Positions 23,902 through 28,276 of a stretch of DNA of 64,000 nucleotides are shown here, piece by piece; the stretch's first letter is position 1, and every line of letters starts with the position of its first letter. The position numbers were made by a program, and so were the translations under genes. Source of the stretch: Acidimicrobiia bacterium. Its GTDB lineage: Bacteria > Actinomycetota > Acidimicrobiia > Acidimicrobiales > Bin134. A model generated the notes under the pieces. That model was not told the origin of the DNA. It did no database searches and was given only the letters and a program-made list of their open reading frames with translations. The stretch covers positions 23,247-87,246 of the forward strand of contig VYCQ01000014.1 of assembly GCA_009843865.1 (NCBI GenBank), given 5' to 3'.

Positions 23902-25077
23902 ATGATTTGTTTCACCTATCCCGGCCAGGGATCACAAGAGGCCAAAATGGGCTTAGACTGGGTAGATCATCCTTCCTGGGAACTAGTGGCCGAAGCCTCA
24001 CAGGTCGCTGGACGAGACATCACCCACCTGCTCTTGCACGCCGACGACGACGAGTTGCGCCAAACCCGCAACTCACAACTAGCCACTTTTATGGTGTCAA
24101 TGATTGCCCTTGATGCCGTCGCCCGAGTAGGTATCGAAACCACTTGCCACGCAGGACATAGCCTCGGCGAGTACTCCGCTCTGGTGGCCGCAGGGGTAAT
24201 AGATTTTGCAGACGGTGTACGACTGGTAACCGAACGGGGCGAAGCCATGCAAGTAGCCGCAGAAGAACAAGACGGCACCATGGCTGCAATTGTGGGGCTT
24301 GACGACAACCTCGTAGAACAAGCCTGCACCCAAGCTGCTGGTGAGGTATGGGTGGCCAACTATAACGCCCCAGGCCAAGTGGTGATCGCTGGTTCACCTG
24401 CAATGGTAGGCACAGCTAGCACCATCGCTAAAGATCTGGGTGCCAAACGAGTGATACCCCTGCCAGTAGGAGGTGCCTTCCATACCCCCTACATGGCATC
24501 GGCTCGTGAACGCCTCCAAAAAGTTATAGGGCAAACCGAGTTTCGAGCCCCCGATCACCCTGTGTATGCCAACGTGGACGCAAGCGCTCACACTAACTAC
24601 GAAAACTGGGCCGATCTCTTAAGCATGCAGCTCACCAGCCCAGTGCGCTGGCGACAATCCCTGCACAACATGTGCGATGCTGGCTGCACCACCTTTGTAG
24701 AGCTAGGCCCGGGAGCGGTGCTAACTGGCACGGTCAAACGAACCGCCAAGGGTGCCAAGCCATTAAAAGTAAACTCTCCTGCCGATATAGATGCCGTTTT
24801 GGAAGCTTTAGCCAGTCCTACTGTGGTGGCAGCAGGCCCCCTAGAAGGCGAAGCTTTGTTCGCTACCGAACGACTGGTGGTAAGCCCCGCGGCGGGCATA
24901 TTCCAGCCCACAACAGAGCCTTTAACTGGTGCTGCTGTGTCTGCTGGTCACCTGCTAGGACAGGTAGGCGCATCTGAAGTACGCACTCCTTGGAATGGCA
25001 TCGTGATGGGTTTTTTAGCTGTGGAGGGTGAACGCGTCGCAGCTAGCCAACCAATTGCCTGGCTACGAACCCACTAA
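23902..25077 (+). CDS. fabD: malonyl-CoA:ACP transacylase fused to a C-terminal biotinyl/lipoyl-like barrel domain
   Basis: FTYPGQGSQ and GHSLGEYSA (active-site Ser). The protein is 391 aa, about 80 aa longer than I expect for a typical FabD. The extra ~80 aa resemble BCCP but lack the MK motif. Confidence 0.9.
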   Translation: MICFTYPGQGSQEAKMGLDWVDHPSWELVAEASQVAGRDITHLLLHADDDELRQTRNSQLATFMVSMIALDAVARVGIETTCHAGHSLGEYSALVAAGVIDFADGVRLVTERGEAMQVAAEEQDGTMAAIVGLDDNLVEQACTQAAGEVWVANYNAPGQVVIAGSPAMVGTASTIAKDLGAKRVIPLPVGGAFHTPYMASARERLQKVIGQTEFRAPDHPVYANVDASAHTNYENWADLLSMQLTSPVRWRQSLHNMCDAGCTTFVELGPGAVLTGTVKRTAKGAKPLKVNSPADIDAVLEALASPTVVAAGPLEGEALFATERLVVSPAAGIFQPTTEPLTGAAVSAGHLLGQVGASEVRTPWNGIVMGFLAVEGERVAASQPIAWLRTH

Positions 25078-25105
25078 CAACAAGCCGACAGAAAACCCCA
25101 GCATC

Positions 25106-26035
25106 ATGACCAGAGCCACCATCACCGGATTAGGCACTGCCCGTGGCCACAAGGTGATCACCAACCACGACCTAGCCCAAACCCTTGACACCAGCAACGA
25201 GTGGATCGTGGAACGCACCGGTATCCACGAACGACGGATTGGGGGTAGCTGTCTGGAACTCAGCACCCAAGCCGCTCGTACTGCCCTTGAACAGGCCCAA
25301 GTGCCACCCGCAGACCTAAATCTGATTATCTGTTCTACCTGCACCCCCGACCAAGTGTTTCCAGCGGTGTCCAACCGCATCCAACACGAACTAGGTGCTA
25401 ACTGTGGTGCCTTTGATCTCAACGCTGCTTGTTCAGGCTTCACTTACGCTGTAAGCATTGCTGAAGCTCAAATCGCCGCAGGAATGAACAAGGTGTTGGT
25501 GATAGGAGTGGACACCCTCAGCCGCTTTACCGACTGGAACGACCGCACCACAGCAGTGCTGTTTGGCGACGGAGCAGGAGCAGTGGTTGTAGAAAAAACC
25601 CAAAACCCCGACAAGGGCATCTTGAGCACCTATCTAGGCTCTGAGGGTCGATTTGCAGACCTTTTATCTTGCGATTTTGGAAACTACCTCCAAATGGATG
25701 GCAAAGAAGTTTTTCGTCAAGCTGTGCGGGTGATGGTTTCAGCCAGCCAAAAAGTGTTAGCCGAAGCAGGTCTGACCTCTGCCGATGTGGATGTGGTAGT
25801 GCCACATCAGGCCAATGTGCGCATCATCGAAAGTGCTATGAAACGACTGCAAATCCCACTAGAAAAAGCAGCCACGGTGCTAGCCACAACCGGCAACACA
25901 TCCTCAGCATCTATCCCCCTAGCTATGGGAGCAGCCATCACAGATGGTTTCATCAGCGACAACAAGCTGGTGTTGCTGGTGGGCTTCGGTGCTGGCATGA
26001 GCGTTGCCGCTGCGCTGATACGCTGGGGCCAATGA
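25106..26035 (+). CDS. fabH: 3-oxoacyl-ACP synthase III
   Basis: AACSGFTYA (Cys), VVPHQAN (His) and GNTSSASIP (Asn). ATG 25106 lies after the fabD stop. Confidence 0.92.
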   Translation: MTRATITGLGTARGHKVITNHDLAQTLDTSNEWIVERTGIHERRIGGSCLELSTQAARTALEQAQVPPADLNLIICSTCTPDQVFPAVSNRIQHELGANCGAFDLNAACSGFTYAVSIAEAQIAAGMNKVLVIGVDTLSRFTDWNDRTTAVLFGDGAGAVVVEKTQNPDKGILSTYLGSEGRFADLLSCDFGNYLQMDGKEVFRQAVRVMVSASQKVLAEAGLTSADVDVVVPHQANVRIIESAMKRLQIPLEKAATVLATTGNTSSASIPLAMGAAITDGFISDNKLVLLVGFGAGMSVAAALIRWGQ

Positions 26036-26796
26036 GCATCGCACGAGTTGTCTTGGTTACCGGCGGAAACCGGGGCATAGGGCTAGCAACCGCTTACGAA
26101 CTAGCGGCACAAGGACACAAGGTGGCGATAACTTATCGCAATCAGCCGCCTGTGGCAGGTGCTGATGCAAGAGCTAATACTGACTTGCAAACAGCAGGTC
26201 TAGCCAACGCCGAACTGTACAGCGTTTGCTGCGATGTCACCGAACAAGCTCAAGTTGAGGCGGCATTTGCTGATGTAGAACAAAACCTGGGTCCTGTAGA
26301 AGTTCTCGTGTCCAACGCTGGCATCACCCGCGACAAACTGCTGATGCGCATGAGCGAAGCAGATTTCACCACAGTGCTGGACTCCAACCTCACCTCTGGT
26401 TATCGAGTTGCCAAGCAAGTCACCAAATCCATGATGCGCAAACGTTGGGGACGCATCGTGTTTGTCTCATCGGTGGTGGGAATCATGGGCCAGGCTGGTC
26501 AGGCCAACTACGCCGCATCTAAGGCTGGATTAATCGGCCTCAGCCGCTCTTTAGCCAAAGAGTTGGCTAGCCGCAATATCACCGTCAACGTGGTTGCTCC
26601 GGGCCCCATCGACACCGCTATGTTGGCTGCACTGGAAGATGAACGCCGCGAAGCCATCTCGCAAGCAGTGCCACTAGGGCGCTTGGGAACACCATCAGAA
26701 GTAGCTGCGGTGATCTCGTTTTTGGCCTCCGAAGCTGCTGGATATGTTACTGGGACGGTAATTCCAGTGGATGGCGGGCTGAGCATGGGAGGATAA
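26032..26796 (+). CDS. fabG: 3-oxoacyl-ACP reductase
   Basis: VTGGNRGIG, NAG and YAASKAG, which are SDR motifs. ATGA overlap with fabH. Confidence 0.9.
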   Translation: MSIARVVLVTGGNRGIGLATAYELAAQGHKVAITYRNQPPVAGADARANTDLQTAGLANAELYSVCCDVTEQAQVEAAFADVEQNLGPVEVLVSNAGITRDKLLMRMSEADFTTVLDSNLTSGYRVAKQVTKSMMRKRWGRIVFVSSVVGIMGQAGQANYAASKAGLIGLSRSLAKELASRNITVNVVAPGPIDTAMLAALEDERREAISQAVPLGRLGTPSEVAAVISFLASEAAGYVTGTVIPVDGGLSMGG

Positions 26797-26855: not shown

Positions 26856-27095
26856 GTGAGCGATGATAATTTCACCCGATTTCAAAACTGTGCCGTAGAG
26901 GTACTCTCAGTAGAAGTCTCTCAGCTAACCCTTGAGGCCAGCTTCGCCGATGATCTGGACTCAGACAGCCTTGATTTAGTAGAGCTGGTCATGGCTTTAG
27001 AAGAAGAGTTTGATGTCACCATTGACGAAGAAGAATTAGAAGGCATAGAGACGGTGGGCCAGGCATTTGACTTGGTGACCCAAAAGTTGGGATGA
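26856..27095 (+). CDS. acpP: acyl carrier protein
   Basis: 79 aa with LDSDSLDLVELVMALEEEF, containing the phosphopantetheine Ser. Confidence 0.92.
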   Translation: MSDDNFTRFQNCAVEVLSVEVSQLTLEASFADDLDSDSLDLVELVMALEEEFDVTIDEEELEGIETVGQAFDLVTQKLG

Positions 27096-28276
27096 CCTCA
27101 CCACGCCGGGTAGCTATAACCGGGGTTGGAGTGCTGGGATGGCCTGGGCTGGGACGTGATGCGTTTTGGCAAGGTCTGCTGCAAGCCCCCGCCGATGGCC
27201 CTAGGGTGATGGATCACTTTGATCCGTTGCCCTATTTCGACAATCCTAAAGAAGCCCGGCGCACCGACCGCTTTGGTCAGATGGCGCTGGCTGCGGCTGC
27301 GGAGGCCCTAGAACAATCTGGCGACCTAAACGCCAATCCCGACCGCATTGGAGTGTGGGTGGGCACCGGTGTGGGCGGCTTACGCACTTTAGAACAACAG
27401 GTAGAAGTACGCATAGAACGGGGTGAGCGTCGAGTGTCGCCTTTCTTGGTGCCCATGATGATGGCTAACGCCGCCTCGGCTGCCATCTCCATGCGCTACG
27501 GCTATGCGGGCCCCTGTGAGAACACCGTTACTGCTTGTGCCGCTGGTACTCAGTCGATCACTAATGCCGCCATGCTGATTCGCTCTAATCGCTGTGATGC
27601 TGTTCTTACTGGAGGCAGCGAAGCATCTAACTCTGCTACTGGAGTTGCCGCTTTTAAGAATATGACCGCGGTGTCATCCTGCAACATCAGCCGACCCTTT
27701 GATCTAGAGCGCGATGGCTTCATTCAAGCCGAGGGCGCAGCCGTGCTGGTACTAGAAGAACTTGAAATGGCTCAAAGTCGCAACGCCACTATCTTGGGAG
27801 AGGTCTTGGGAGGAGCTAGCACCGCTGATGCTCATCACATAACCGCACCTGCTCCGGGCGGAGCGGGTGCAATCCGCTGCATGAAACTAGCTCTAGCCGA
27901 TGCCGGGCTGATGCCCGACCAAATCGTTCACATCAACGCCCATGGCACCTCCACACCGCTAAACGATGCTGCTGAAGCAGAGGCAATCCACAAGGTGTTT
28001 GGAACTCCTGGGCCTCTGGTTACCTCCACCAAAGGAGTAACCGGCCACGCTTTAGGAGCCGCAGGTGCCTTGGAAGCGGCGGCGGTAGTTTTGGCCATGA
28101 TGCATGGCCAAATCCCCCCCACCTACGGCTATGAAACACCCGACCCTGACATGGCTCCCATTCGTATAGTGGCTGATAAAGCGACCTCATGGACACCAGG
28201 CCCGTCGCTGTCTAACTCATTTGGTTTTGGGGGCCACAACGGAACGGTGGCTATCGGCCCTCCGCCGCAGTCTTAG
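27092..28276 (+). CDS. fabF: 3-oxoacyl-ACP synthase II
   Basis: TACAAG (Cys), HGTSTPLND and GHALGAAG. Confidence 0.92.
   Translation: MTSPRRVAITGVGVLGWPGLGRDAFWQGLLQAPADGPRVMDHFDPLPYFDNPKEARRTDRFGQMALAAAAEALEQSGDLNANPDRIGVWVGTGVGGLRTLEQQVEVRIERGERRVSPFLVPMMMANAASAAISMRYGYAGPCENTVTACAAGTQSITNAAMLIRSNRCDAVLTGGSEASNSATGVAAFKNMTAVSSCNISRPFDLERDGFIQAEGAAVLVLEELEMAQSRNATILGEVLGGASTADAHHITAPAPGGAGAIRCMKLALADAGLMPDQIVHINAHGTSTPLNDAAEAEAIHKVFGTPGPLVTSTKGVTGHALGAAGALEAAAVVLAMMHGQIPPTYGYETPDPDMAPIRIVADKATSWTPGPSLSNSFGFGGHNGTVAIGPPPQS

What the first reader, a model, noticed from the sequence alone, without database searches (positions are those of the whole stretch)
24814..25077. FabD carries a C-terminal biotinyl/lipoyl-like barrel that lacks the modifiable lysine
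Seen: after a normal FabD end (...ELGPGAVLTGTVKR...DIDAVLEAL), the ORF continues for ~80 aa: ERLVVSPAAGIFQPTTEPLTGAAVSAGHLLGQVGASEVRTPWNGIVMGFLAVEGERVAASQPIAWL. This matches the BCCP/lipoyl hybrid-barrel pattern V.SP..G.F.......V..G..L..(E-A-M-K)......G.V......G..V...QP.. The A-M-K position reads G-A-S-E, so the domain cannot be biotinylated. Inference: a non-biotinylated BCCP-like domain fused to the malonyl transferase might dock FabD to acyl-CoA carboxylase or another partner. I do not know this fusion as a described architecture.
Basis: partly seen in the sequence, partly recalled or inferred. Interest (0 to 1): 0.55.

Follow-up and report, generated by a model that had tools for sequence, protein, structure and literature searches.

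The report
FabD with lysine-less biotin-carrier domain
The fatty-acid enzyme FabD of this sponge-associated actinobacterium carries a flexibly tethered copy of the biotin-carrier fold that cannot hold biotin; this module belongs to an undescribed family that sits in the fatty-acid synthesis operon of many Actinomycetota, and it is probably a docking piece whose partner has not been tested.

Summary
The ORF at window 23902-25077 (391 aa) is a complete FabD (residues 1-304), then a disordered linker (306-320), then a 70-residue barrel (323-391). A profile of the barrel's relatives matches BCCP and lipoyl domains in the PDB. The AlphaFold model (pLDDT 92.8) superposes on Pyrococcus BCCP (TM 0.75/0.84, rmsd 1.5 A). 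The EAMK biotin turn is deleted, not substituted, and none of 393 relatives has an MKM lysine.

This is not an assembly artefact. About 578 database proteins share the tail, nearly all of them 391-aa FabDs. In other orders of the class the same module ("X") is a separate ~87-aa gene between fabD and fabH. Fused forms also occur in Micromonosporaceae and in one further family.

New context evidence points to the acyl-CoA carboxylase carboxyltransferase (CT) as the partner. Stand-alone X operons usually end with a short CT gene, and X-less operons do not. In one genus X and that CT left the operon together and overlap. A second X copy sits before type III PKS genes, so a condensing-enzyme partner remains a rival.

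No paper on the module was found. This scan has already reported the family in at least 28 other genomes. The function is inferred, not shown.

The parts
23902..25077 (+). fabD-X fusion gene (391 aa plus stop)
   Evidence: Single open frame. 578 homologues of the tail were found, nearly all 391 aa.
23902..24813 (+). FabD malonyl-CoA:ACP transacylase domain (residues 1-304)
   Evidence: PF00698 residues 4-290, E 1.3e-35. TIGR00128 fabD 289 bits, above cut-off. Invariant GHSLGE Ser87, Arg112 and His194. AF2 pLDDT above 90.
24817..24861 (+). Flexible linker (residues 306-320) containing the invariant Gly316-Glu317 motif
   Evidence: pLDDT below 50 in the full-length model. G5/E6 are invariant in all 45 aligned relatives, both fused and stand-alone.
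24868..25074 (+). Lysine-less BCCP-like barrel 'X' (residues 323-391)
   Evidence: Profile hits to BCCP and lipoyl domains. hhalign to the genome's own AccA BCCP domain. AF2 pLDDT 92.8 with strands E11-16, 21-25, 40-44, 47-50, 55-60 and 73-79. Foldseek top hits 5gua, 1bdo and 2evb.
24958..24981 (+). Shortened beta-hairpin GQVGASEV, where BCCP carries E-A-M-K-M
   Evidence: A 4-residue gap lies opposite EAMK. The hairpin is 8 aa in fused Acidimicrobiales forms and 12 aa elsewhere. Only 7 of 393 relatives have any Lys there, and none in an MKM context.
25106..26035 (+). fabH (KASIII), probable true start at ATG 25106
   Evidence: Homologues align only from residue ~26-32 of the 25028 ORF. Translation from 25106 starts MTRATITG.
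26032..26796 (+). fabG
   Evidence: tblastn matches across loci. ATGA overlap with the fabH stop.
26856..27095 (+). acpP
   Evidence: ORF list. Conserved in all related operons.
27092..28276 (+). fabF, last gene of the operon here (no carboxyltransferase follows)

Best explanation
Shown: the last ~70 residues of this FabD form a BCCP-type barrel-sandwich domain. The biotin-bearing turn is deleted, so the domain cannot be biotinylated or carry CO2. It hangs on a ~15-residue disordered linker. It belongs to a vertically inherited Actinomycetota family ('X') that is either fused to FabD or encoded as an ~87-aa gene between fabD and fabH.

Inferred: X is a non-catalytic docking module derived from a biotin carrier. 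It keeps a carrier's ability to bind the carboxyltransferase (beta) subunit of acyl-CoA carboxylase. By doing so it holds the first malonyl-CoA consumer of FASII (FabD, and with it FabH) next to the enzyme that makes malonyl-CoA. In this lineage the fusion guarantees a 1:1 tether of FabD to that partner. The invariant Gly-Glu motif in the linker and the family-specific E-R, G-E-R and A-W-L-R motifs are the likely contact surface.
For: - Fold and homology.
- No lysine.
- Flexible tether with two confident domains: (pTM 0.76, linker pLDDT below 50).
- Purifying selection: nine invariant and eleven nearly invariant positions across classes.
- Family range: 120/301 genomes of the class and 120/401 of the phylum sample carry it.
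- Rosetta-stone link to FabD: three fused clades, namely Acidimicrobiales, family f55, and Micromonosporaceae plus two other families.
- Link to the carboxyltransferase (CT):
  - 15 of 18 stand-alone-X operons with the full gene set end with the same short (~470 aa) CT after fabF.
  - Five X-less operons from four families have no CT.
  - In genus g91 (G281, G272) X lies apart from the fab genes, with its stop overlapping the start of that CT (PF01039, E 7e-117). The fabD-fabH-fabG-acpP-fabF operon there has neither X nor CT.
- Analogy: plant BADC proteins are lysine-less BCCP homologues that bind and regulate heteromeric ACCase (abstracts of 10.1101/634550 and PMC12706156).
Against:
- In the window's own order the fused operons mostly lack a CT gene (19 of 21). 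This genome's short CT lies on another contig.
- The X-CT co-relocation rests on one genus.
- Co-occurrence counts are not phylogenetically independent.
- X always lies directly upstream of fabH, and a paralogue lies upstream of type III PKS genes. Both fit a condensing-enzyme partner equally well.
- BCCP contacts CT largely through biotin and the very hairpin that is shortened here.
Confidence: 0.42

Rival explanations
1. X is an adaptor for KASIII-fold condensing enzymes (FabH, type III PKS). It brings FabD or malonyl-ACP supply to the initiating ketosynthase and has no carboxylase contact.
For: - X is always the gene immediately before fabH, in 40+ loci.
- A second X copy sits directly upstream of a chalcone-synthase-like type III PKS in G388, G548 and G488.
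- Streamlined f4 genomes lack both X and fabH in the operon.
Against: - X persists in fabD-X-fabG operons without fabH (L049, L050).
- Several families have fabD-fabH with no X.
- No X-FabH fusion was seen.
- In g91 X left fabH and stayed with the CT.
Confidence: 0.25
2. X is a BADC-like decoy. It competes with the true BCCP domain of the carboxylase alpha subunit and down-regulates malonyl-CoA synthesis. Fusion to FabD, or to a cNMP-binding domain, makes that inhibition responsive to FASII state or to a signal.
For: - It is a lysine-less BCCP homologue, like BADC (BADC abstracts).
- A cNMP-binding+X fusion exists (P0145). This suggests X can act as the output of a sensor.
- It is genomically linked to the CT.
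Against: - The actinobacterial alpha subunit carries its BCCP in cis (605-aa frame). A trans decoy would therefore compete poorly.
- The hairpin that enters the active sites is shortened.
- No expression or activity data exist.
Confidence: 0.15
3. The barrel is a structural appendage that stabilises or oligomerises FabD, or is a decaying relic of an operon-encoded BCCP. It has no separate partner.
For: - Pfam sees the window's tail only below threshold.
- X is absent from many Actinomycetota with normal fab operons.
Against: - It is strongly conserved, with invariant charged residues across classes.
- It exists as an independent gene with its own RBS and start.
- The linker is disordered, so the barrel is not packed on FabD.
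- It is retained in 1.8-Mb streamlined genomes such as this one.
Confidence: 0.1
4. The extension is an assembly or annotation artefact: a missed stop or frameshift joining fabD to a downstream ORF.
For: In other orders the two parts are indeed separate genes.
Against: The same continuous 391-aa frame is found in hundreds of independent genomes and metagenomes, including complete chromosomes and cultured Micromonosporaceae. There is no stop in the frame.
Confidence: 0.01

Closest known systems
Biotinyl domain of biotin carboxyl carrier protein (Pfam PF00364), e.g. Pyrococcus horikoshii BCCP 2D5D/2EVB/5GUA and E. coli BCCP 1BDO
   Same: Same flattened beta-barrel fold (TM 0.75/0.84, rmsd 1.5 A, ~30% identity). 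Same two-half-barrel sequence pattern. Like a carrier domain, it is tethered by a flexible linker.
   Different: The E-A-M-K turn is deleted and there is no modifiable lysine. It has its own invariant motifs (GE, ER, GER, AWLR). It is attached to FabD or stands alone in the fab operon, not attached to a biotin carboxylase.
Plant BADC proteins (biotin attachment domain-containing, lysine-less BCCP paralogues that regulate plastid heteromeric ACCase)
   Same: A BCCP homologue that has lost the biotinyl lysine and is associated with the committed step of fatty-acid synthesis (abstracts).
   Different: X is bacterial, much smaller, and fused to or adjacent to FabD and FabH. Binding to a carboxylase is not shown. 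No specific common ancestry with BADC was tested.
Mycobacterial fabD-acpM-kasA-kasB-accD6 operon
   Same: A FASII operon that starts with fabD and ends with a short (~470 aa) carboxyltransferase. The stand-alone-X operons of Acidimicrobiia have this same layout.
   Different: Mycobacteria are not known to me (own knowledge) to have an X gene or a FabD tail. The operon CT here is not specifically closest to AccD6 among solved structures; PccB-type chains score higher.
Canonical FabD (e.g. TIGR00128 equivalog)
   Same: Residues 1-304 are a normal FabD with the catalytic Ser, Arg and His.
   Different: About 85 extra C-terminal residues.

Membership tests
Biotin_lipoyl superfamily (PF00364; barrel-sandwich hybrid fold) | Flattened eight-stranded beta-barrel with internal two-fold repeat | tested here: met
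   AF2 pLDDT 92.8. Foldseek top hits are BCCP domains, probability 1.00.
Biotin_lipoyl superfamily (PF00364; barrel-sandwich hybrid fold) | Significant sequence match to the family model | tested here: inconclusive
   The window's tail gets no Pfam hit. Relatives score 12-29.5 bits against a 22.1 cut-off, and some pass. The family profile against PDB BCCPs gives 1e-6 to 5.5e-10. hhalign gives 90%.
Functional BCCP / lipoyl carrier | Modifiable lysine in the (A/V)-M-K-M (biotin) or D-K-A (lipoyl) turn between strands 4 and 5 | tested here: not met
   The turn is deleted in the window protein. None of 393 relatives has an MKM context, and only 7 have any Lys in the hairpin.
Functional BCCP / lipoyl carrier | Covalent biotin or lipoate on the protein | not testable with these tools
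   Needs a streptavidin blot or mass spectrometry.
Plant BADC-type ACCase regulators | BCCP homologue lacking the biotinyl lysine | tested here: met
Plant BADC-type ACCase regulators | Binds biotin carboxylase/BCCP subcomplex and changes ACCase activity | not testable with these tools
   Only gene-context links to a carboxyltransferase are available.
FabD (malonyl-CoA:ACP transacylase, TIGR00128) | Score above the equivalog cut-off, and the catalytic GHSxG Ser, Arg and His | tested here: met
   289.1 bits against 260.9. G85-H86-S87, R112 and H194 are invariant.
Acyl-CoA carboxylase epsilon subunit (PF13822) | Match to the ACC_epsilon model | tested here: not met
   The only weak hit in the genome is a different small ORF downstream of the 522-aa CT. 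X has no such match.

The most novel reading that the evidence does not exclude
X is the physical coupler of a bacterial 'malonyl-CoA metabolon'. It is a cofactor-free biotin-carrier mimic that plugs into the carboxyltransferase of acyl-CoA carboxylase. It thereby hands malonyl-CoA directly to FabD, FabH or type III PKS, or gates the carboxylase according to FASII demand. This would be the first bacterial counterpart of plant BADC regulation. It is present in cultivable antibiotic producers such as Micromonospora and Salinispora.
Probability: 0.3. Interest if true: 0.75.

Novelty: new variant of a known kind. Interest (0 to 1): 0.55.

Why it matters
Type II fatty-acid synthesis is considered one of the best-mapped bacterial pathways. 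Even so, a conserved extra component sits at its first step in a large part of the phylum Actinomycetota. That includes sponge symbionts, abundant aquatic Acidimicrobiia and the natural-product genera Micromonospora, Salinispora and Actinoplanes.

If X links malonyl-CoA production to its consumers, three things follow:
- It would explain how these bacteria partition malonyl-CoA between lipids and polyketides.
- It would offer a handle for engineering precursor supply.
- It would show that cofactor-less carrier-domain mimics regulating carboxylases arose outside plants.

The fused forms occur in cultivable, genetically tractable strains, so the question can be tested directly.

Tried and rejected
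- Pfam on the tail alone gave nothing, even at E<=10.
- Single-sequence phmmer against the PDB gave only chance-level hits: a viral matrix protein at 0.095 and BCCP at 0.18. A family profile was needed.
- NCBIfam gave sub-threshold hits to YqeB (TIGR03309) and to various carboxylases. I treat these as shared hybrid-barrel signal, not membership.
- I considered calling the operon CT an AccD6 orthologue and dropped it. It is short like AccD6, but PccB-type chains score higher in the PDB.
- I considered X as an ACC epsilon subunit and rejected it.
- The precomputed Pfam labels PF25997 and PF25919 on some stand-alone members could not be identified, because they are absent from the local library.
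- 'open_frame_aa' from the genome search overstates fusions in high-GC genomes; L072 is not fused. I therefore re-scored fusion by requiring the FabD core in the same frame.
- The careful ML tree did not finish, so only the quick tree is reported.
- Literature searches found no paper on this module.

Full report
**What is in the window.** ORF 23902..25077 (+) encodes 391 residues without interruption. It opens a fab operon: fabD-X, fabH (probable start 25106), fabG (26032), acpP (26856) and fabF (27092-28276). Residues 4-290 match Pfam Acyl_transf_1 (E 1.3e-35). The protein passes the NCBIfam fabD equivalog (289.1 bits against 260.9). The catalytic GHS87LGE, Arg112 and His194 are invariant in an alignment of 53 full-length relatives.

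**Is the tail a biotinyl/lipoyl-type barrel?** Taken alone it is invisible to Pfam (no hit at E<=10) and nearly invisible to a single-sequence PDB search (BCCP 2d5d at E 0.18). I therefore collected relatives.
- A region-restricted search found 578 proteins with the tail, nearly all 391-aa FabDs from Acidimicrobiia. Named examples are Candidatus Poriferisocius, Rhabdothermincola and Acidimicrobiales MAGs.
- A profile of 45 tails (alignment A1) matches solved BCCP and lipoyl domains over their full length. P. horikoshii BCCP scores 1e-6 (profile 9-78 against chain 2-70), the P. shermanii 1.3S subunit 1.4e-7, and E. coli E2p lipoyl domains 5.5e-10.
- hhalign of A1 against this genome's own AccA biotinyl domain, which has a canonical EAMKM, gives 90% probability and E 1.6e-6.
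- AlphaFold2 on A1 gives pLDDT 92.8 and an all-beta model.
- Foldseek ranks BCCP domains first: 5gua at TM 0.75/0.84, rmsd 1.5 A and 30% identity, followed by 1bdo and 2evb.
- Some stand-alone relatives pass Pfam's Biotin_lipoyl gathering score, at 25.4 and 29.5 bits.

The fold assignment is therefore solid.

**The lysine.** In the hhalign alignment the four residues E-A-M-K of the true BCCP fall opposite a gap in the window protein (LLGQV----GASEV). The biotin-bearing turn is deleted rather than substituted. The hairpin has two discrete lengths, 8 residues (179 domains) and 12 residues (204 domains). Only 7 domains have any lysine there, and none is in an M-K-M context. The domain cannot be a biotin or lipoate carrier of the known type.

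**Architecture.** The full-length AF2 model has pLDDT 92.4 and pTM 0.76. FabD (1-304) and the barrel (323-390) are both confident. Residues 306-320 have pLDDT below 50. The barrel is therefore tethered, not packed on FabD. Gly316-Glu317 lie inside this disordered stretch, yet they are invariant in fused and stand-alone relatives alike. This suggests a short motif that becomes ordered on a partner.

**It is a family, not a quirk of this gene.**
- In a sample of 301 genomes of the class, 120 carry the module.
- In the window's order it lies in frame with fabD.
- In other orders it is a separate ~85-90-aa gene with its own Shine-Dalgarno and ATG. It always lies between fabD and fabH, giving fabD-X-fabH-fabG-acpP-fabF.
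- In a 401-genome sample of the phylum, 120 genomes match at E<=1e-6, although the weakest rows are true AccA BCCP domains.
- The clear family members again lie between fabD and fabH in several other classes.
- Fused forms recur in family f55 (L066, L067, L178) and in Micromonosporaceae. There Micromonospora, Salinispora, Actinoplanes, Dactylosporangium and others have FabD of ~389 aa. Their Pfam Biotin_lipoyl score is just below threshold, 21.2 against 22.1 bits.
- A quick ML tree of 84 X domains follows taxonomy and shows three separate fused clades. The label needs 4 changes, and starred branches force at least 2.
- An exhaustive profile search of 1.84 billion representatives found 444 clusters at E<=1e-10.
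- Sources auto-name the stand-alone form 'biotin carboxyl carrier protein', 'biotin/lipoyl-containing protein' or 'hypothetical protein'.

**Who is the partner?** Repeated fusion and fission with fabD is a Rosetta-stone link to FabD.

Evidence pointing to the acyl-CoA carboxylase carboxyltransferase:
- In the orders with stand-alone X, 15 of 18 full operons end, after fabF, with one and the same type of short (~470 aa) carboxyltransferase.
- Five X-less operons from four families (G001, G013, G018, G029, G135) have no such gene.
- In genus g91 (G281, G272) the fab operon is fabD-fabH-fabG-acpP-fabF, without X and without CT. X lies elsewhere, and its stop overlaps the start of that CT (PF01039, E 7e-117). 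The two genes that flanked the ancestral operon core therefore left it together and stayed translationally coupled.

Evidence pointing to a KASIII-fold partner:
- X is always immediately upstream of fabH.
- A second X copy precedes a type III polyketide synthase in three genomes of genus g210.
- The streamlined family f4 lacks both X and fabH in its operon.

Evidence against a strict FabH link:
- fabD-X-fabG operons exist without fabH (L049, L050).
- Plain fabD-fabH operons exist without X.

Evidence against a simple CT link:
- Fused operons of the window's order mostly lack a CT (19 of 21).
- In this genome the short CT lies on contig C2. A 522-aa PccB-type CT with an epsilon-like ORF lies on C35, and the single BC-BCCP alpha subunit lies on C21.

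Two further fusions show that X is a portable module: cNMP-binding+X (P0145) and X+AMP-binding enzyme (P0190).

**Reading.** I take X to be a cofactor-free docking module derived from a biotin carrier. It connects enzymes that make and use malonyl thioesters. The carboxyltransferase is its most likely anchor (about 0.4). A condensing-enzyme anchor (0.25) and a BADC-like decoy role (0.15) are the rivals. Nothing here shows binding.

**Comparison with the known.** The closest structural relatives are BCCP biotinyl domains. The closest functional analogue is the plant BADC family, lysine-less BCCP homologues that regulate ACCase (abstracts). The closest operon analogue is mycobacterial fabD-...-accD6, although the CT here is not specifically AccD6-like. 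I found no paper on the module.

**Earlier reports from this scan.** The scan has already reported the same family on other DNA. At least 28 findings exist, several with follow-ups that reached the same fold and no-lysine verdicts and also named BADC. Those are unchecked AI notes, not independent evidence.
- the X-CT co-relocation in g91
- the counts of CT presence against X presence
- the X / type III PKS pairs
- the alignment showing that the lysine turn is deleted

**Caveats.**
- Gene-context counts are not phylogenetically independent.
- The tree is a quick search on 86 columns.
- The tallies and the tree include unpublished genomes: G212, G275, G611, G438, G412, G462, G522, G661, G510, G317, G301, G618, G377 and G383.
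- Loci L075, L078, L084, L167, L168 and L171 come from unpublished genomes.
- No key claim rests on them alone. The g91, g210, f4, f55 and Micromonosporaceae evidence comes from other genomes.

Noticed in passing
window 25028-25106: The fabH ORF as listed starts at GTG 25028 and would overlap fabD-X by 50 nt. Homologues align only from residue ~27, so the real start is probably ATG 25106, 28 nt after the fabD-X stop.
   Followed up: partly
L085:5956-7364; L169:3753-5280; L170:4898-6246: A second, diverged X copy lies directly upstream of a chalcone-synthase-like type III PKS in three genomes of one genus. Those genomes also have the FabD-X fusion.
   Followed up: partly
L040:4593-6330 and L047 (same layout): X lies alone, with its stop overlapping the TTG start of a 470-aa carboxyltransferase. 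The fab operon of the same genome (L199) has neither gene.
   Followed up: yes
P0145 (248 aa) and P0190 (347 aa): Metagenomic proteins in which X is fused behind a cyclic-nucleotide-binding domain, or in front of an AMP-binding (acyl-CoA-ligase-like) enzyme. Their genomic context could not be fetched.
   Followed up: partly
L204, L205 (family f4, same order): In streamlined relatives the operon is fabD-fabG-acpP-fabF, so both X and fabH are missing from it. Whether fabH lies elsewhere was not checked.
   Followed up: no
G000 C35:58729-58881 (L183): A small ORF just downstream of the 522-aa PccB-type carboxyltransferase weakly matches ACC_epsilon (23.1 bits, below the 25-bit cut-off). The short 470-aa CT on contig C2 has no such neighbour.
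   Followed up: no
alignment A1, hairpin columns: Stand-alone X proteins have a 4-residue longer hairpin (consensus E-G-P-G-T) than the fused Acidimicrobiales forms (V-G-D-x-E-V). Fused forms of f55 and Micromonosporaceae keep the long hairpin.
   Followed up: partly
L049, L050: fabD-X-fabG-acpP-fabF-CT operons without fabH, lying divergent from a second carboxylase gene pair (AccA-like plus CT).
   Followed up: no
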